From positions 288,001 through 352,000 of the forward strand of contig CAWFQB010000001.1 of assembly GCA_963817895.1 (NCBI GenBank): a stretch of 64,000 bases of DNA. The letters are read 5' to 3'. Shown in pieces: positions 1 through 5,415 of the stretch. Each line of letters begins with the position of its first letter. The stretch's first letter is position 1. The notes under the pieces are model-generated. The model made no database searches, had not been told where the DNA came from, and saw only the letters and a list, made by a program, of their open reading frames with translations. The translations under genes were made by a program, and so were the position numbers. This DNA is from an uncultured Chthonomonadaceae bacterium. GTDB lineage: Bacteria; Armatimonadota; Chthonomonadetes; Chthonomonadales; Chthonomonadaceae.

Positions 1-627
1 CATCCCGCTCATCATGAGAATGGCGCGGTGGCAGGGCAGGCAGCGCCACTTCTCAGGGGCAAAGTGACGAAACACGGACAGCAAGCGGGCCTCCTGACGG
101 GAGTAAGCCACTGGCAGCCGTTTATTGACGAGGCGGCAGCCAAATACGGCGTGGACCACAACCTGATTGCTACCGTGATTCAGATTGAAAGCAGAGGCAA
201 TCCCAACGCGAAATCGCATGTTGGCGCGCTCGGCCTGATGCAGCTTATGCCTGCCGTCGCCACCGAGTTGGGCGTTCACCACCCGCTTGATCCGCGCGAA
301 AACATTATGGGCGGAACCAAACTGCTGAGTCAGCTTCAAAAGCGCTATCACGGTGATGTGGCGCTCACTCTCGCCGGGTACAATGCCGGACCGGGAAATG
401 TCCAGAAATATGGCGGGCTTCCCCCGTTCAAGGAGACGCGGCAGTATGTTCAGAGGGGAACAGTTCTCTTCCACAACTTGAGCGATCCCGGCGCGCAGGA
501 GGCCGCCGCTCACGCGCCGCGCAAAGCGACCGGAGGGCGACAGGTATCCGTTCATGCCGCCGTACCCACCGCCACACACGCCGTGGCTGGCCGGCGCGGC
601 GGCTCCGATATCCGCCGAGCCACATAG
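1..627 (+). CDS. Lytic transglycosylase (SLT) domain; N-terminally incomplete first segment of a giant CIS effector
   Basis: Frame is open from base 1. SLT motifs IQIESRGN (catalytic Glu), GLMQLMP, YNAGPG and ETRQYV. Appears to frameshift into the next segment near 560-620. Confidence 0.85.
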   Translation, partial: HPAHHENGAVAGQAAPLLRGKVTKHGQQAGLLTGVSHWQPFIDEAAAKYGVDHNLIATVIQIESRGNPNAKSHVGALGLMQLMPAVATELGVHHPLDPRENIMGGTKLLSQLQKRYHGDVALTLAGYNAGPGNVQKYGGLPPFKETRQYVQRGTVLFHNLSDPGAQEAAAHAPRKATGGRQVSVHAAVPTATHAVAGRRGGSDIRRAT

Positions 628-1400
628 GACCAAAACGGCAGCCGGGGGCAGTCTGGGGCTTCTCATGGCAAAGCCTACGCTCACTGCCGCAGAAATCGCT
701 CAGGCGCGCGGGCAGATCGAAATGGAGTCGGATGCGCGTAAGCGCGGCGACCTGTACGAGCAGTTACAAACCAAAACTCCATATCATAATCAGCGTAACA
801 ACCAGAGCGTCGGCAAGGGCGGCAAAGCTATTGGCGACATCATGTGCAACCTGACTTCGACGGCTATGGTGCTGGAAACGCTGGGTATCGGCAATCCCGA
901 CCCGGGTCACTATCCGCAGTTCGAAGATTATCTGGAACATGTGCGCGTCGCGAATAAACTGCCTGAGCGCACGACGGAGGGCGGATGGGGCGGCGTTGCG
1001 GCAAAAATGGGCGCGAAATACAAGATGCCTGGGACGCAACATAAAAGCGGATCATCCCTGGTGGGAAACTACCGTTCGCCCTTCCCTGCGCAGTGGCAAT
1101 TCTGTCCTGATGAGCAATACGGGCCATATTATGCGCTTACAGGGCGTCGGCGAAAGTGGGCTGGTTGTAGACGACCCCTATGGACATGAGAAGCTGCTGC
1201 CCGGCACAAAGCATAAATGGCTCAAACCTAACTTAAAGACCAGTGACACACAGGGTGTTTACGGCAAAGCCAATGTGTGGCCCTGGGATCAGGTTGCCAA
1301 ACATAACATGCTTTGCGGTTGCCGCCTTCTCCAAAACAGCGCCGTCGCGCCCTCCGGCAGGCGGAACAGCCGGTGGCACTGCGGCATTGGCTGGAGGTAG
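554..1400 (+). CDS. C39-like cysteine peptidase domain (frameshifted segment of the effector)
   Basis: PYHNQR..MCNLTSTAMVL (Cys) in ORF 554-1189. GHIMRLQG..LVVDDPYG (His, Asp) in ORF 939-1400. Frames join near 1030. Confidence 0.75.
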
Positions 1401-4354
1401 GGCCAGTTCGCCAACGATAGGACACAGCCTGAAAGCGCAAATGTCGCGCATGGGAGGAGACGGGGCAGACGCTCATCCCGAAACCGATGCGGGAGCCTTG
1501 CGGCAAAATCTGCTGCGCCAGAGCAGCGGGTTCGCGCCCGACCGCCATTTGCGCGATAAACTCGGCGGGCATTTAGGCTTCGACCCCGGCAACGCGAAAC
1601 TGCACGTCGGCCCCGCAGCCGCGCAGAGCGCTGCGCCAACTCAACGCGGAAGCCTTCACCATCGGCAGCGATGTGTTCTTCGGCGCAAACCGCTTCGACC
1701 CGTCCACGAACAAGGGATTGGGCCTGATCGCCCACGAACTCACCCACGTCGGCCAGCAAACCGGCGCGCATGGCGACTCGACCCGCTTCTTCACGCAGCG
1801 CGGCGGCGACGAGATGGAGAAGGAAGCGCAGCAGGTAGGGGAGCGCGTTCTTGCCCATGCGGGGAACGCGAATAGCTTACAGGTGGACGAGTACGTTTGT
1901 CACTACGAGGGCGAAAGCGGCGCGATCAGCCGCAATGATGAGGAGCGCTTGAACCGCATTTCTGTTCAGGCATTGCAGCAAGCCGGACATACATTGCGTC
2001 AGCGCGGACAGTCCCATACCTCCGTTGCTCATCTTTCTGTCGCTATTGACCTTGACCTTGTCAATCTTACGGACTCCGAAGCCGCTCAAATCTGGACCGA
2101 CGCGCTTCTTTCTGCCTTGCCGATAAACTCGCGGTCAACGTCCGATCAATCCCCCTCCTTGCAGAGCGGGGTCGAACAGATTGCAAGGAAGGAGCTTTTT
2201 TGCGAGACTGTCAGTGGCGTCGGCATGCCTCAGTTTGTCTGCCCGGTCATGGAAATAACGGATACCAAAGATTGGCTCTCGATGGATAGAGAGATGTGGC
2301 GTTCTGACGTTAGAAACAATAACAGCCACAACTCTTTTATCAAAGCTGCCATTTACAATACGCAGCATCTGCTTCCCGATGAGTATGGCTCTATTGCAGA
2401 GCGAAGCGCTTATTATGGCGTCATGCACGCTTTGATCCAAAATAAAAACGGGACGAAAGGCGTGGATTTCTTCGACGCCGCGCAGCGCGTTACCGACTCC
2501 AATGAAGTGGGCGCTATTGAAGGGCCGATTGGCTGGAGCCTGCACAGTAAAGAAGCCTTGAAGGTTCTCACGGATGTCAATAAGAAGCTTCTTGTCGAAA
2601 ACATGCAGGTCATTCGCCGCTTACTTTACGAGCGGGGGAGGCCGACAAATCCGAAGGACGCCGGTTCCGACACCACGCTTTCTGCGAGAGCGTTCGATCT
2701 GCAAATGGTGGAAAAGGAGCAGGGAGTTGTTGAAGACTATCTGAAATCACATGCAAACGAGATCTCTGCGGGAGACATAAAAGATTTAAACGACGACCTG
2801 AACTTCAACGGCTTTGTCCGATTCGCCGGAGAACTGCTTGGGCAGGTGGGAGATACAACGCCGATACAGTGGGCCAAAGAAGCGCTAGGGGTGAAGGAAC
2901 TGAATTTCCGGCAGAGAAACCACCGCGAAGCCATAGGCAAGGCACTGGTCTTCCTGCTTCACAAAGATGAGTTTTTAACGAATAATCACGCTGGCATGGA
3001 CAATGTGAAGAAAGCCTACTTTGACTACCTGCGCAAAGGCCAGGCGAACGGCGCGGGCGCAGGCATGTTGCGCCAGAGCAGTCCGATGCAGCGTAGCGCT
3101 ATACCGGGAACGTGCGCCGATATTGGAACCGGTGAGGCGCAGGCGCAGGCCGTTGAAGCAGCGGTGGCGGGCGGAATGTCACCTCTTCCTGACAGAGCGG
3201 TAATGGCGCCTTCATTTGGTATCGCGACGAAAAAGACACCCGGTGATGCTCAACCGCAGGGCAACTCTGCCCCTGTACCTACCGCCACTGTGCCGATGCG
3301 GCAGGTCACGACGCCGGATGGCAAAGTAACGCTGATAACGGAAGAACAGTACCAGGCCTTAACTTTGCAGCAATTGACGCACCTGGGTAAACTGTTGCAT
3401 ATCATTGACGACGAGGCGGACTGGCATAAACGCGATGAACAGGACTTTCTTCAACATCATAACGCTTTTGGGTGGTCGAGCGATAAGCTGGGAGGCGTTA
3501 CTCCTCCTCCGCTTACTCTTTGGGATCGCCCGAAAGTTCCCCTTCACGCCGGAATGGAAGCTGTTAATGCGCGCAAGTTGGATGCGGCGGCGCGTGATCT
3601 AGCGCTGGGGCGTGAGGTAATGAAGCAGGCCAGCAACGAGTGGATGGCCTATTTGCAAGGAACAATTAAGGGAGCAGACCGCGGAATTGCTGGTACAACT
3701 GTGGTTCGTGATGTGTCATTCAGTATTGCCATTGGAGGAGCCGCAATTGTGGCCGCGCCAGTTGTCTTGGCCGGAGCCGGAGCCGCTGTTGCAGCCGCAG
3801 GAGCGACGGGAACGACAGCGGCAGTGCTGACAGGAGGGGCAACTGTTGGCGCGCTCACGGTGGGCGGCGGGGCGGCTGGAGCCGTGCTGCGCGGCGGATC
3901 GAATGCAGCAGGTCAAGCAGTAACCGGGCATGTCGACTGGCATCAAGTGGGACAGGAAAGCGCCGCAGGCGCGCGCAGCGGAGCGGTGGATGCCTTTGGC
4001 TCGGCAGTCACGATGGGAACAGGAGCCGTTGCTGGAAACGTCTTCAGGCGCGGCGTGAGTACATTGGGAACACGATTGGCGCGCAGCAGTGTCGCCAATG
4101 CAATATCGGGCGGTGTGTCAAATGCGGCGGGCGCGCTACTGAATCCGCCGCCGATTGCGCCCGGTCAAAAACCCGAATCGTGGGCGGATAAGGCTAAACG
4201 TGTCGGGGTAGCAACAGGGTTGGGAGTGATTGGCGGTGGGCTTACGGGTGGCTTCAGTGAAACATTGCTGCGCTTGAATGCTGGAACATTAAGTCGAATG
4301 TTCACCAGTGGCGCGAGCGCCGCTGCCGGCACTGGCGCAACCGCGGCGATTTAA
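1243..4354 (+). CDS. DUF4157 (eCIS core) domain effector with unknown helical domain and long Gly/Ala hydrophobic region
   Basis: [18 protein letters not shown] (ORF 1243), a frameshift near 1635, then [28 protein letters not shown] (HExxH)..MEKEA. Downstream hydrophobic [17 protein letters not shown] tract. Confidence 0.85.
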
Positions 4355-4360
4355 GAAGGC

Positions 4361-5415
4361 ATGGACGCGCATGACGCGCATCGCGCATTCAGCGCCTTGA
4401 CGGTTATAAAGCAAATGCTGACCAACTTTGGTCTGGGGGCGCTACAGGCAAGTCCCAAACACAACAATGACCTGGCCGTAGCGTTGCAAACGCTGGAAGA
4501 TACCCGAAAGGCCGCAACTACACCGGCGAAGAGCGCCATAGTAGGAGATAAAGCCACTGCGCCTCCAACTGCCACAGGGTCACCTACAGATACGATACCC
4601 CCCAAAAACCTGCACAAAGATGCCTGGCTGGGCGGCAAATACGTTGAAAAGACAACTGCAAAGAAGATGTATATGGTGCGCGCCAATGACAAAGAACTCG
4701 ATGTCAAAGGTTCTTATGGCAATCTGCTGTTCGGCGATCTGGCAAAAGCGGAGGCTTATGCACATCATTTGGCTGGAACCGGCGAAGAATCTATTCGCAA
4801 CACGAACGCTTTGAGCAGCCGCTGGAAATCCGGTCAGATAGGTAACCGCATTGATGTCGTGCGTATTTATGAAGTGCCGGTGGCACAGACTACCGCACCG
4901 GCAAAGTCGCGCCACAAATTGAGAAGTTGAGCGGACAAGTGCTGGACGGGGGAGCGCCGCAGGTGCAGGTGTTGGCACACTCAGATAAGTTGATTCCAGT
5001 TAAAGATGTTAAAGTTCCCATTTTGGATATTGGGCGTCCTGTAGGACACATGGATGATCCTTTATCTGTTCCGCCCGGCACGAACGTCCCAACCATTATA
5101 GGCATACCGGATGCAAACGGCAAAATTATCGGCCATCGGCCCTACACAGGTCCTGCATTGGATCAGATGCAGCGATATGGTGTTTTGCCATGGGGCGTTG
5201 ATGAATGTATTCATTATGGCAAGCGCACCTATCTTGGCGATGTTATCGAGTATCGTTTTGAAGAGAAGAACATTGTTGTCCGTGTCGCCGTACCGACAAA
5301 AGATCAGGTGAAGGCAGACCGCGCCTCGGCAAAAAAATATAACACAAAGCAGGAAAACAGGCTGATGAACCCGGAAACCTGGGATGTAGTCAGTATTGAC
5401 AAAATCCATCGTTAG
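4361..5415 (+). CDS. Putative C-terminal toxin domains (TNT/NADase-ART-like followed by BECR/DUF4258-like RNase), frameshifted near 4880
   Basis: Same frame as 1673-4354 after a single TAA. Reconstructed YEVPxGTDYRTGKVAPQ..LDGGAPQ motif, then GTNVPTII..RPYTGPALDQMQRYG. Confidence 0.55.

What the first reader, a model, noticed from the sequence alone, without database searches (positions are those of the whole stretch)
1..5415. Giant poly-effector: two wall-lytic enzyme candidates, DUF4157 and stacked cytoplasmic toxin domains in one apparent ORF
Seen: stitching across single-base frameshifts (about 600, 1030, 1315, 1635, 4880) and one in-frame TAA gives a continuous protein of more than 1800 aa. 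Its order is SLT, C39-like peptidase (Cys/His/Asp), DUF4157 (HExxH), unknown helical domain, Gly/Ala hydrophobic region, NADase-like domain, RNase-like domain. Known: DUF4157 marks eCIS cargo and typically precedes the toxin. Inference: DUF4157 in the middle, with putative envelope-degrading enzymes before it and cytoplasmic toxins after it, suggests an antibacterial polyprotein that may be self-processed. Repeated LRQSS and QR motifs are candidate cut sites.
Basis: partly seen in the sequence, partly recalled or inferred. Interest (0 to 1): 0.85.

Follow-up and report, generated by a model that had tools for sequence, protein, structure and literature searches.

The report
Giant wall-cutting cargo gene of injection system
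This is most of one very large gene inside a phage-tail-like injection system of a soil-type bacterium, joining five cell-wall-cutting enzyme domains to the domain that marks injected cargo. Its apparent breaks are most likely sequencing errors, and the proposed toxin domains at its end could not be confirmed.

Summary
Coding runs without a gap across window 1-5415 through five single-base frame changes and one in-frame TAA. The gene starts 1,714 bases upstream of the window, with one more frame change there. Stitched, it is 2,023 codons to the TAA and 2,377 to the TAG at 5413-5415.

The assembly is full of indels: 10 frame changes in 44.7 kb of conserved genes. The breaks here are of the same kind and split single Pfam domains, so I read them as artefacts. 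Their density is about four times the baseline, so some real decay is not excluded.

Domain order:
- GH24 lysozyme
- two NlpC/P60-like units
- SLT
- C39-like cysteine peptidase (borderline)
- DUF4157/eCIS_core with HExxH
- a conserved 290-residue all-helical domain
- a Gly/Ala hydrophobic region
- a 353-residue orphan module

The gene lies in an eCIS locus, after a tail-assembly-chaperone-like gene. Related Armatimonadota hold intact giants of 2,143-2,603 residues at that place, with DUF4157 in the middle.

The closest known relatives are DUF4157 eCIS cargo proteins and the tape-measure-related effector Tme. The NADase reading found no support and the RNase reading only a weak, indirect hint. 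Self-processing is untested. I file it as a new variant of a known kind, of moderate interest.

The parts
1..560 (+). Frame-1 piece that continues from upstream of the window. Upstream lie GH24 lysozyme and two NlpC/P60-like units, with the gene start at genome C1:286287 (L002:8287). The SLT lytic transglycosylase domain lies at about 124-444, with motifs IESRG 184-198, GLMQL 232-246 and AGYNAG 373-390.
   Evidence: Pfam SLT E 4.1e-29, residues 42-148 of the piece 1-624. Upstream: Phage_lysozyme E 2.6e-40 and NLPC_P60 E 7e-6. Motif positions.
554..627 (+). Frame change 1 to 2, in a Pro/Ala-rich linker. The exact base is not placed.
   Evidence: Overlap of the open frames. Coding potential hands over at about 560.
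776..1183 (+). C39-like (Peptidase_C39_2) cysteine peptidase domain. Cys lies in MCNLT 842-856, His in GHIMR 1122-1136, Asp in DDPYG 1170-1184. A frame change 2 to 3 falls inside 1003-1046, where there are AAAAA, GGG and AAAA runs.
   Evidence: X read-through P0008: PF13529 E 7.6e-5, 23.8 bits (cut-off 24), residues 38-172 on profile positions 3-143 of 143. Motif positions.
1312..1314 (+). Probable site of frame change 3 to 1: a TTT run right after the C39-like domain.
   Evidence: Frames and sequence. Coding potential hands over at about 1320.
1513..1769 (+). DUF4157 leader (first LRQSS at 1513-1527) and the eCIS_core/DUF4157 zincin domain (about 1540-1769; HELTH at 1733-1747). A frame change 1 to 2 at about 1636-1642 (CC/AA) splits the domain.
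   Evidence: P0009 read-through: PF13699 E 4.4e-22, 78.5 bits, profile positions 3-78 of 79. G054 aligns across the break. The leader profile scores 19.4 bits against 10.7 for the best of 2,000 shuffles.
2186..3043 (+). Conserved all-helical domain of about 290 residues and unknown function. It forms the C-terminal domain of ordinary DUF4157 proteins of 562-740 residues elsewhere.
   Evidence: 7 homologues, best local alignment 42-50% identical; 6 of the 7 carry PF13699. 79 invariant columns in the alignment. Model pLDDT 65.4, pTM 0.68, 13 helices. No fold match: best Foldseek E 0.36, best VIA Z 5.5.
3068..3082 (+). Second LRQSS, followed by MQRS, directly after the conserved domain.
   Evidence: The repeat is not more than chance.
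3695..4258 (+). Gly/Ala-rich hydrophobic region. Membrane-helix-like segments lie at 3695-3889 and 4202-4258.
   Evidence: Kyte-Doolittle scan and composition: 48% Gly+Ala and 8% charged residues in each of the two 50-residue blocks 701-800 of the piece 1577-4351.
4352..4354 (+). In-frame TAA, followed 6 bases later by ATG 4361. It is either the real end of the giant gene or an error/nonsense change.
   Evidence: Sequence. Only 1 internal stop in 14,348 aligned codons of conserved genes, against 10 frame changes. In relatives the giant runs up to the gene-3 homologue.
4361..5415 (+). Orphan module of 353 residues: a helical head, a Pro/Thr/Ala linker, then a region of unknown function. It holds a frame change 2 to 1 (a missing base) at about 4874-4880 (CCGG) and ends at TAG 5413-5415.
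   Evidence: No family or structure match. The only outside relative is P0003, E 5.6e-4.
5434..5736 (+). Gene 3: a separate 100-residue gene with its own GAGGG ribosome-binding site. It is conserved just after the giant in the relatives.
   Evidence: Sequence. tblastn 40-60% identity in 8 loci of 7 contigs. Fused to the end of the DUF4157 protein in G025.

Best explanation
Window 1-5415 is the last three quarters of a giant cargo gene of an extracellular contractile injection system (eCIS). The last 353 codons may be a second, adjacent gene. The organism is an Armatimonadota bacterium near the Chthonomonadaceae.

Shown:
- The gene starts at genome C1:286287. It lies between a tail-assembly-chaperone-like gene and the second tube, tube-initiator, spike, PAAR and baseplate genes.
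- Domain order: GH24 lysozyme, two NlpC/P60-like units, SLT, a C39-like cysteine peptidase, a DUF4157/eCIS_core zincin with an intact HExxH, a conserved 290-residue helical domain, a Gly/Ala hydrophobic region, and (after a TAA) a 353-residue orphan module.
- The DUF4157 plus helical-domain part alone corresponds to DUF4157 and the C-terminal domain of ordinary cargo proteins of 562-740 residues.

Inferred:
- The six single-base frame changes are assembly indels.
- The protein is made without a signal peptide, packed in or under the inner tube, and expelled on contraction, like the tape-measure-related effector Tme and the AlgoCIS cargo proteins.
- The N-terminal enzyme arm then cuts the glycan strands and peptide stems of a target bacterium's wall.
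- The hydrophobic region enters the membrane.
- The DUF4157 module and whatever the orphan module does act beyond the membrane.
For: Continuity and breaks:
- Searches show unbroken coding, with Pfam domains and a homologue spanning the breaks.

Assembly errors:
- Completeness is 81% in only 14 contigs.
- rpoC is split and rpoB is whole.
- Of 81 long ORFs from the same-genus genome G001, 29 had an orthologue that passed my filters. Of those, 9 are frame-broken, with 10 changes in 44,652 bases. Seven of the 10 are of the extra-base type, several of them beside A runs of 4 to 9.
- Here 5 of 6 breaks are of that type. Three are placed by reading both frames at or beside short runs (TTT twice, CC/AA), one lies in a stretch with AAAAA, GGG and AAAA runs, one at CCGG, and one is not placed.

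Locus:
- Sheath, tube, phrog_508 chaperone (E 1.2e-5), the giant, gene 3, gp19 tube (E 1.4e-44), a roughly 1,350-residue A/G/S/P-rich protein.
- Then CIS_tube (E 1.3e-27), Phage_base_V (E 1.3e-28), PAAR (E 1.1e-25), gp25 (E 2.7e-27), Baseplate_J and Tail_P2_I.

Relatives:
- Intact open frames of 2,474, 2,603, 2,549 and 2,143 residues have eCIS_core at residues 1,302-1,502. All lie between the same chaperone-like gene (76-81% identical) and the gene-3 homologue.

N-terminal arm:
- Phage_lysozyme E 2.6e-40, NLPC_P60 E 7e-6, SLT E 4.1e-29, C39_2 E 7.6e-5.
- Catalytic-type motifs are present.
- The SLT region's best long matches include 2 of 4 proteins that their source names tape measure proteins.

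Core module:
- 7 homologues of 522-740 residues; 6 of the 7 carry PF13699.

Papers (passages read):
- PMC8213781: DUF4157 at the N-terminus of eCIS toxins, with linkers that can exceed 1,000 residues.
- PMC11126660: Tme is 2,247 residues, with DUF4157, membrane helices and tape-measure homology, and associates with the spike.
- PMC8894135: Cgo1 and Cgo2 lie in the tube lumen.
Against: - Break density is 0.84 per kb in this gene, and about 15 breaks in 17.7 kb across the whole eCIS locus. The baseline is 0.22 per kb. So the locus is either locally worse assembled or truly decaying.
- The only public run found covers 651-991 and 2149-2299, without differences there, so no break site was checked.
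- Described DUF4157 cargo has a disordered N-terminal loading sequence (bioRxiv 10.64898/2026.05.27.728243, passages read). Here about 1,070 residues of folded enzymes precede DUF4157, and how such an arm would be loaded is unknown.
- No AAA+ loader gene was seen among the ORFs scanned at 5400-33000.
- No tape-measure family was found in the gene by Pfam, NCBIfam or PHROGs.
- No immunity gene follows it.
- Target, loading and activity are all inferred.
Confidence: 0.62

Rival explanations
1. The locus is a decaying eCIS. Some or all of the frame changes and the TAA are real inactivating mutations, so the giant gene is a pseudogene.
For: - Break density in the locus is about four times the genome baseline: about 15 in 17.7 kb against 10 in 44.7 kb.
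- Structural genes are also hit: sheath 4 breaks, tube at least 2, VgrG 2.
- The piece 1577-4351 found no match in one same-genus genome (G001) and only a short weak one (E 2.2e-7, residues 16-86) in the other, G002.
Against: - The ratio of frame changes to stops (15 to 1) matches that of the assembly's errors (10 to 1). My recollection, not tested here, is that real decay gives more nonsense changes and larger deletions.
- All changes are single bases.
- Pieces keep 65-93% identity to the intact G054 sheath over most of its length; one middle piece keeps 36%.
- An unrelated neighbour, peptidase M1, is also broken. That points to a regional quality drop.
Confidence: 0.22
2. The TAA at 4352-4354 is real. 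The giant gene ends after the hydrophobic region at 2,023 codons, and 4361-5415 is a separate, translationally coupled cargo gene next to the DUF4157 gene.
For: - In-frame stops are rare among this assembly's errors: 1 in 14,348 codons.
- An ATG lies 6 bases after the stop, behind an AAGAAGG stretch.
- Toxin genes adjacent to DUF4157 genes are a described arrangement (PMC8213781, passages read).
- The module starts with its own helical head and linker.
Against: - In 4 relatives the giant ORF ends 17-41 bases before the gene-3 homologue; in G015 the gap is about 210 bases, too short for a 353-codon gene; the gap in G059 is masked.
- The variable C-terminal modules there lie inside the giant ORF.
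- The stop is in frame with what follows.
- The purine stretch sits only 1 base from the ATG, a poor spacing by general knowledge.
Confidence: 0.45
3. The giant protein is the system's tape measure or lumen scaffold, with tail-associated lysin domains. Its role would be structural, with local wall digestion during penetration, and not that of a toxin carrier. This overlaps with the best explanation.
For: - It sits directly after a tail-assembly-chaperone-like gene, as tape measure genes do in phage tails (the gene order of phage P2 is recalled).
- The SLT domain's best long matches include 2 of 4 proteins that their source names tape measure proteins.
- Lytic transglycosylases inside tape measure proteins are described (PMC10194240, abstract seen in a search listing).
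- Tme is tape-measure-related (PMC11126660).
Against: - No tape-measure family was detected.
- The gene is highly variable between relatives outside DUF4157, unlike a length ruler.
- A second long conserved protein (6659-10721) lies in the same slot and could be the ruler.
Confidence: 0.2
4. The wall-lytic arm serves to lyse the producer cell and release particles. It would work like an endolysin and would not attack a target.
For: - eCIS particles are released by lysis of the producer (model in PMC8213781, passage read).
- The protein has five wall-hydrolase-type domains and no signal peptide.
Against: - No holin or spanin-like partner was seen among the ORFs scanned.
- The arm is fused to the cargo marker domain.
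- Relatives carry alpha/beta-hydrolase-type domains in place of wall hydrolases in the same arm. That fits swappable effectors better than a release device.
Confidence: 0.1
5. The pieces are separate small genes with their own starts.
For: Each frame piece contains some ATG, GTG or TTG codon.
Against: - Two breaks cut through single Pfam domains.
- Coding potential has no gap.
- Relatives have one intact ORF.
Confidence: 0.03

Closest known systems
DUF4157 (eCIS_core, PF13699) eCIS cargo / eCIS-associated toxins, e.g. AlgoCIS Cgo1 and Cgo2 (PMC8213781, PMC8894135, bioRxiv 10.64898/2026.05.27.728243; passages read)
   Same: - The gene is encoded inside an eCIS cluster.
- It has a DUF4157 domain with HExxH, preceded by a leader that fits the family's leader profile.
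- A variable C-terminal part follows.
- The DUF4157 plus 290-residue domain part is homologous to ordinary cargo-sized proteins of 522-740 residues.
   Different: - DUF4157 lies at about residues 1,090-1,165 and not near the N-terminus.
- About 1,070 residues of folded wall-hydrolase domains come before it, where described cargo has a short disordered loading sequence.
- In 79 DUF4157 loci from many phyla the median stretch before the domain is 176.5 residues (over the 68 complete ORFs).
- Only 3 of the 79, all with Armatimonadota record titles, have 800 residues or more before it.
Tme, tape-measure-related effector of Streptomyces davawensis CIS (BN159_7576, 2,247 residues; PMC11126660, sections read)
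   Same: - It is a very large ORF with DUF4157 and hydrophobic, membrane-helix-like segments.
- It sits upstream of the tube-initiator, spike and PAAR genes.
- It has a variable C-terminal module.
- It has a tape-measure flavour: the slot after a chaperone-like gene, and an SLT domain most like those in tape measure proteins.
   Different: - Tme-like genes are defined with DUF4157 in the N-terminal region; here it is central.
- No nuclease domain and no detectable tape-measure homology were found.
- The wall-hydrolase arm is not a described feature of Tme.
- No direct sequence comparison with Tme was possible, because its sequence was not at hand.
Phage tape measure proteins and tail-associated lysins carrying peptidoglycan hydrolase domains (TM4 tape measure motif, cited in PMC13277306; enterococcal phage survey PMC10194240, abstract only)
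   Same: - Wall-cutting domains (SLT, endopeptidase) sit in a long protein that is expelled through a tail tube.
- The gene position is after sheath, tube and chaperone.
   Different: - It has five hydrolase-type domains in a row plus DUF4157.
- It belongs to a chromosomal eCIS locus, not a phage.
- No tape-measure family match was found.

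Membership tests
DUF4157 eCIS cargo (eCIS-associated toxin / Cgo-like) | PF13699 eCIS_core domain above the curated cut-off, with HExxH | tested here: met
   78.5 bits (cut-off 22), E 4.4e-22, profile positions 3-78 of 79 with X at the break. HELTH at 1733-1747.
DUF4157 eCIS cargo (eCIS-associated toxin / Cgo-like) | Encoded within an eCIS gene cluster | tested here: met
   Sheath, tube, chaperone-like, gp19, CIS_tube, Phage_base_V, PAAR, gp25, Baseplate_J and Tail_P2_I genes on both sides.
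DUF4157 eCIS cargo (eCIS-associated toxin / Cgo-like) | Short disordered N-terminal loading sequence before DUF4157 | tested here: not met
   About 1,070 residues with five Pfam-recognised or Pfam-like enzyme domains precede it. Only the 50 residues just before the domain fit the family leader: 19.4 bits against 10.7 for the best shuffle.
DUF4157 eCIS cargo (eCIS-associated toxin / Cgo-like) | Packed in the tube lumen and injected | not testable with these tools
   Needs particle proteomics or cryo-EM.
Tme-like tape-measure-related effectors (PMC11126660) | Unusually long ORF in conserved synteny within a CIS cluster | tested here: met
   2,023-2,377 codons. The same slot holds intact giants in 4 relatives.
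Tme-like tape-measure-related effectors (PMC11126660) | DUF4157 in the N-terminal region | tested here: not met
   The domain starts about 1,090 residues from the start codon.
Tme-like tape-measure-related effectors (PMC11126660) | Predicted membrane helices / hydrophobic regions | tested here: met
   Segments at 3695-3889 and 4202-4258. This is a hydropathy scan only; no dedicated membrane-helix predictor was run.
Tme-like tape-measure-related effectors (PMC11126660) | Remote homology to phage tape measure proteins | tested here: inconclusive
   No tape-measure family in Pfam, NCBIfam or PHROGs. Only the SLT domain resembles SLT domains of proteins named tape measure.
TNT-type NAD+ glycohydrolase (PF14021) | Match to the TNT profile | tested here: inconclusive
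   - No Pfam hit at E up to 10 for either half.
- No PF14021 hit in the whole genome at E up to 10.
- The X-joined read-through scores 1.5 bits on a profile built from 5 TNT domains of this phylum, against 8.8 for the best shuffle.
- The break falls inside the candidate domain and the custom profile is narrow.
- The resemblance is motif-level only (IYEVP..GKVAPQ..GGAPQVQ), by eye.
DUF4258 / BrnT-RelE-like ribonuclease toxin fold (PF14076) | Match to the DUF4258 profile, including the conserved His of its first helix | tested here: inconclusive
   - No Pfam hit.
- A custom profile from 29 phylum sequences gives -1.3 bits, rank 739 among 2,002.
- hhalign gives probability 3% alone, and 79% over only 29 columns when paired with P0003.
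- P0003 itself matches DUF4258 at E 0.0064, below the cut-off.
- The window has Pro where P0003 and the profile have His (TGPALDQMQ against SGHALDQMQ).
Peptidase_C39_2 (PF13529) | Profile match above the cut-off, with Cys and His in register | tested here: inconclusive
   23.8 bits against a cut-off of 24, but over the whole profile (positions 3-143 of 143). Cys, His and Asp candidates are present. No solved relative was found by sequence.
GH24 phage lysozyme, SLT lytic transglycosylase, NlpC/P60 | Profile matches above the cut-offs, with catalytic-type motifs | tested here: met
   - PF00959: 138.1 bits.
- PF01464: 101 bits.
- PF00877: 26.4 bits (cut-off 23), with DCSG in two repeated units.
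- The NlpC/P60 match is marginal and covers only the region around the Cys.

The most novel reading that the evidence does not exclude
In the Chthonomonadales-Fimbriimonadaceae branch of Armatimonadota, eCIS cargo may have become a two-armed protein built around DUF4157.
- One arm is a swappable, envelope-acting enzyme arm on the N-terminal side. Here it is a five-domain wall-cutting set; relatives carry alpha/beta-hydrolase-type (lipase-like) domains.
- The other arm is a swappable membrane or cytoplasm-acting arm on the C-terminal side.
- The central zincin would serve as the hinge that separates or matures the two arms after injection.

If so, this would be an injection system that brings its own wall-drilling kit and is aimed at bacteria. 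It would also give DUF4157 a testable job as a processing protease.
Probability: 0.2. Interest if true: 0.7.

Novelty: new variant of a known kind. Interest (0 to 1): 0.45.

Why it matters
DUF4157 is the most widespread marker of eCIS cargo, yet its role is unknown. Described cargo has a short disordered loading sequence before it.

A lineage in which 1,000-1,400 residues precede DUF4157 raises two testable questions. Here that stretch holds five wall-hydrolase-type domains.
- How does folded cargo get loaded?
- Does the zincin cut the protein?

It also points to a bacterial target for this system, and so to an eCIS that could be studied as an antibacterial device.

For the scan itself the main lesson is practical. 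This assembly carries about one frame change per 4.5 kb of conserved genes, so broken genes in it should not be read as biology without polishing.

Tried and rejected
- **Public reads.** One run (X1, small share 0.07) was found, with no RNA holder listed. Its contigs cover only 651-991, 2149-2299 and 33 bases at 1728-1760. It shows no indels, and no break site is covered.
- **Module 4361-4927.** No match in 400 other genomes of the phylum. No Pfam hit at E up to 10. Only chance-level PDB hits. None of 1,477 longer-protein candidates scored. No PHROG.
- **Module 4873-5412.**
  - No PDB hit.
  - Among 1.84 billion representatives there are 3 hits: its own copy P0001, a repetitive protein P0002 that I regard as spurious, and P0003.
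  - The single-sequence fold has pLDDT 43.3, too poor to search with.
- **TNT and DUF4258 profiles.** See the membership tests.
- **ESM Atlas.** It does not hold these sequences.
- **Conserved helical domain.**
  - Foldseek against the PDB gives a best E of 0.36.
  - VIA-align wide gives a best Z of 5.5, below the noise level stated for helical models.
  - No similarity to the DUF2515 region of L044.
  - No PDB sequence relative; the HIV protease rows at E 0.009 and above fall on the Gly/Ala region and I take them as chance.
- **A second, truncated DUF4157 leader** after the conserved domain ([11 protein letters not shown] at 3170 onward): 1.6 bits, rank 129 of 2,002. Not supported.
- **The search for related loci** with the single protein found nothing. 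The alignment-based scan worked.
- **The 1,226-residue neighbour** has no PDB, Pfam or PHROG match.
- **Earlier findings of this scan.** None for this genome.
- **Literature.** Two searches listed no paper that describes wall hydrolases N-terminal to DUF4157. In PMC11297309 I found none of the terms lysozyme, transglycosylase, NlpC or tape measure. Supplementary figures of PMC8213781 and PMC11126660, which show domain architectures, were not seen and may hold such cases.

Full report
**1. What is in the sequence**

On the + strand the open frames overlap in a chain:
- 1-627, frame 1
- 482-1189, frame 2
- 855-1400, frame 3
- 1237-1875, frame 1
- 1577-4354, frame 2
- 4355-4930, frame 2, after the TAA at 4352-4354
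- 4873-5415, frame 1

I trained a codon-usage score on 1,113 long ORFs of the same genome. It stays positive in exactly one frame at a time and hands over at about 560, 1015-1045, 1320, 1590-1640 and 4870, with no non-coding gap.

The window is G000:C1:288001-352000, and the gene does not start in it. The frame-1 piece runs back to genome 286642. One more frame change, at a TTT run near genome 286750, joins it to an ATG at 286287. The 276 bases before that ATG score as non-coding. With X at each break the coding region has 2,377 positions: 2,023 to the TAA and 353 after it.

**2. Are the breaks real?**

Evidence that the assembly is error-ridden:
- The genome has 14 contigs but only 81% marker completeness.
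- rpoC is split into frames of 238 and 1,320 residues, while rpoB is whole.
- I took 81 ORFs of at least 350 residues from 12 sampled stretches of the same-genus genome G001 (97% complete). Of these, 29 had an orthologue in G000 with at least 65% identity and 70% coverage.
- Of those 29, 9 are frame-broken, with 10 frame changes in 44,652 bases, or 0.22 per kb. Seven of the 10 are of the extra-base type, several of them beside A runs of 4 to 9. Only 1 internal stop occurs in 14,348 aligned codons.

The giant gene compared with that baseline:
- It has 6 changes in 7.1 kb. Five are of the extra-base type.
- Reading both frames places three of them at or beside short runs (TTT at genome ~286750 and at 1312-1314; CC/AA at 1636-1639). 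One lies in a stretch with AAAAA, GGG and AAAA runs (1003-1046), one at CCGG (~4877), and one (~560) is not placed.
- Two of the breaks cut single domains. With X at the break, Peptidase_C39_2 covers profile positions 3-143 of 143 (E 7.6e-5). eCIS_core covers positions 3-78 of 79 (78.5 bits against 60.1 for the fragment).
- The intact G054 protein aligns across the 1636 break.

I therefore read the breaks as assembly indels.

Against this, the density is about four times the baseline. The whole eCIS locus shares it: sheath 4, tube at least 2, the 6659-10721 gene 1, VgrG 2, for about 15 in 17.7 kb. An unrelated peptidase M1 gene just upstream is also in three pieces. That pattern fits a regional drop in assembly quality. 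Real decay cannot be excluded, and I give it 0.22.

Public reads did not help. The one run found covers 651-991 and 2149-2299, identical to the window, and no break site.

**3. The TAA**

Points for a real stop:
- Stops are about ten times rarer than frame changes among this assembly's errors.
- An ATG follows 6 bases later.

Points for one ORF:
- In 4 relatives the giant ORF ends 17-41 bases before a conserved 100-residue gene, which here lies at 5434-5736 with its own GAGGG site. In G015 the gap is about 210 bases, too short for such a module, and in G059 it is masked.
- Their variable C-terminal modules lie inside the giant ORF.

I leave this near even: 0.45 for two genes.

**4. Domains, in order**

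| Part | Position | Evidence |
|---|---|---|
| GH24 phage lysozyme | upstream, L002:8287 onward | E 2.6e-40 |
| Two repeated units with the DCSG motif | upstream | NLPC_P60 26.4 bits, cut-off 23 |
| SLT | 124-444 | E 4.1e-29, with ES, GLMQ and AGYNAG motifs |
| C39-like peptidase | 776-1183 | borderline, see section 2 |
| Gly/Ala/Thr linker and DUF4157 leader | before 1540 | leader profile 19.4 bits against 10.7 for the best shuffle |
| eCIS_core with HELTH | about 1540-1769 | |
| Conserved helical domain | 2186-3043 | see below |
| Linker and coil | after 3043 | |
| Gly/Ala-rich hydrophobic region | 3695-4258 | |
| TAA | 4352-4354 | |
| Orphan module | 4361-5415 | see section 6 |

The conserved helical domain has 7 homologues whose best local alignment is 42-50% identical. 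Six of the 7 are DUF4157 proteins of 562-740 residues in which this domain is the C-terminal part. So the middle of the giant corresponds to DUF4157 and the C-terminal domain of an ordinary cargo protein. Its model is all-helical (pLDDT 65.4, pTM 0.68). It has no convincing structural relative: best Foldseek E 0.36, best VIA Z 5.5.

**5. Context and relatives**

Gene order around the giant:
- Upstream: sheath, tube, and a 132-residue gene matching PHROG 508, tail assembly chaperone (E 1.2e-5). That gene is 76-81% identical in relatives.
- Downstream: gene 3, a gp19 tube gene, an A/G/S/P-rich protein of about 1,350 residues, a tube initiator (CIS_tube), VgrG, PAAR, gp25, Baseplate_J and Tail_P2_I.

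Distribution of the DUF4157 piece among relatives:
- Among 61 genomes (G000 and 60 relatives), 14 have a match to it.
- Four genomes of a sister family hold intact open frames of 2,474, 2,603, 2,549 and 2,143 residues in the same slot, with eCIS_core at residues 1,302-1,502.
- Only the DUF4157 region, about 170 residues, is conserved among them.

A scan of one genome per species found 586 related stretches. In the best 79 loci:
- The median stretch before the domain is 176.5 residues and the median ORF length is 585 (both over the 68 complete ORFs).
- Only 3 loci (L042-L044) have 800 residues or more before the domain.
- The record titles of L040-L044 name Chthonomonadaceae, Chthonomonadales, Chthonomonas or Fimbriimonadaceae. 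Those names place them in phylum Armatimonadota (I looked up Chthonomonadaceae; Fimbriimonadaceae is recalled).

The long N-terminal arm is thus a lineage trait. Its content varies:
- Wall hydrolases here.
- An Abhydrolase_8/DUF900-type domain in G041 (22 bits, cut-off 20.5).
- A GxSxG lipase-like stretch in L043, seen by eye.
- L044 carries DUF2515 and a class-3 lipase after DUF4157.
- G015 ends in Peptidase_M15_4.

**6. The proposed toxins**

The module 4361-5415 has no detectable family:
- Pfam at E up to 10: nothing for five sub-pieces.
- NCBIfam: nothing.
- PHROGs: nothing.
- PDB by sequence: nothing meaningful.
- 400 other genomes of the phylum: nothing.
- Longer proteins: nothing.

NADase reading. 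The stretch IYEVP/GGTDYRTGKVAPQ...DGGAPQVQV recalls the end of TNT domains by eye. But the X-joined read-through scores 1.5 bits on a profile built from 5 TNT domains of the phylum, where the best of 2,000 shuffles reaches 8.8 bits. PF14021 finds nothing in the genome.

RNase reading:
- The last 150 residues have one outside relative in 1.84 billion representatives, P0003 (E 5.6e-4, 52% identity over 74 residues).
- The end of P0003 matches DUF4258 weakly (E 0.0064, below the cut-off).
- The window's piece alone scores -1.3 bits on a DUF4258 profile, and 3% by hhalign. It reaches 79% over 29 columns only when paired with P0003.
- It has Pro where that helix has His.

So the NADase reading is unsupported and the RNase reading has only a weak hint. 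The module is 'toxin-like' by position alone.

**7. How it most likely works**

Shown: the architecture, the locus and the intact relatives.

Inferred from published systems:
- The protein is made in the cytoplasm. Its first 26 residues, seen, have no hydrophobic signal-like stretch; this is by eye.
- It is held in or under the inner tube through its DUF4157 region. Tme co-purifies with the spike, PAAR and tube initiator (PMC11126660). Cgo1 and Cgo2 fill the tube lumen (PMC8894135).
- It is expelled on contraction.
- The muramidase, the lytic transglycosylase and the cysteine peptidases would open the peptidoglycan of a bacterial target, as tail-associated lysins and lysin-bearing tape measure proteins do.
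- The Gly/Ala helices would enter the membrane.

The job of the zincin is open. In AlgoCIS, DUF4157 is dispensable for loading, and Cgo1 toxicity does not need its metal motif (bioRxiv 10.64898/2026.05.27.728243; PMC8894135). Cutting the giant into arms is an attractive but untested idea.

The LRQSS pair is within chance. [LIVM]QR motifs, however, are six times denser in the 200 residues before DUF4157 than after it across 75 loci: 107 in 12,663 residues against 42 in 29,302. They are a family feature of unknown meaning.

**8. Verdict**

This is a real, very large eCIS cargo gene, broken on paper by assembly errors. It is a new variant of a known kind. It has the DUF4157 cargo core and a Tme-like size and slot, but a five-domain wall-hydrolase arm stands before DUF4157, where described cargo has a short disordered leader. 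It fails one defining feature each of the Cgo-like and the Tme-like definitions, so I describe it as working like them and do not file it as a member. Interest is moderate at 0.45.

Noticed in passing
window 5434-5736 (+): A 100-residue gene is conserved directly after the giant in relatives: 40-60% identity in 8 loci of 7 contigs. Its C-terminal motif (AVADRVYELMAQELRHGRTRGL) recurs at the end of the A/G/S/P-rich neighbour (EVWSLLKRRMAVEAERRGRW). In G025 it is fused to the end of the DUF4157 protein. It may be a shared anchoring tail of lumen proteins.
   Followed up: partly
window 6659-10721 (+): ORF 6659-7099 and the 1,226-residue ORF 7044-10721 are one gene split by a frame change; the G054 homologue aligns across it. 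The product is rich in Ala, Gly, Ser and Pro (53% together), has no family match, and is a candidate tape measure or lumen protein.
   Followed up: partly
whole genome G000: The assembly carries about 0.22 frame changes per kb in conserved genes. 9 of 29 orthologues are broken and rpoC is split, mostly by extra bases. Broken genes here need polishing before any biological reading.
   Followed up: yes
genome C1:283056-300782 (window -4944 to 12782): The eCIS locus has about 15 frame changes in 17.7 kb, roughly four times the genome baseline. The unrelated peptidase M1 gene just upstream (L002:1823-3755) is also in three pieces.
   Followed up: partly
L002:7616-8011 (genome C1:285616-286011): The small gene before the giant matches PHROG 508, tail assembly chaperone (E 1.2e-5). 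At 76-81% identity to relatives, it is the most conserved gene of the cluster.
   Followed up: partly
75 DUF4157 loci among L042-L118: [LIVM]QR motifs are about six times denser in the 200 residues before DUF4157 (0.84 per 100 residues; 52 of 75 loci have at least one) than after it (0.14 per 100).
   Followed up: partly
window 3170-3230 (+): GGMSPLPD...FGI, right after the second LRQSS/MQRS, resembles the start of a DUF4157 leader. That would suggest a fusion of two former cargo genes. The profile score is only 1.6 bits, rank 129 of 2,002.
   Followed up: yes
L044:6992-12652; L043:6965-14146; L016:5992-13638: Other Armatimonadota giants carry different enzyme-type domains around DUF4157. L044 has DUF2515 plus a class-3 lipase after it. 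L016 and L043 have alpha/beta-hydrolase-type stretches before it. Long amphipathic Gly/Ala helices fill the N-terminal arms of L043 and L044.
   Followed up: partly
window 39158-39683 (-): A Pvc16_N (DUF4255) tail-terminator gene is also split into two frames. It lies about 20 kb beyond the baseplate genes, on the other strand.
   Followed up: no
window 24296-30162 (-): There is a caspase-domain (Peptidase_C14) protein of 508 residues and a WD40-plus-caspase protein of 1,046 residues, next to TPR proteins.
   Followed up: no
L014:13200-13564 (end of the G054 giant): The C-terminus reads like an HNH-type nuclease motif by eye (H..H..N..C..C). This was not tested.
   Followed up: no
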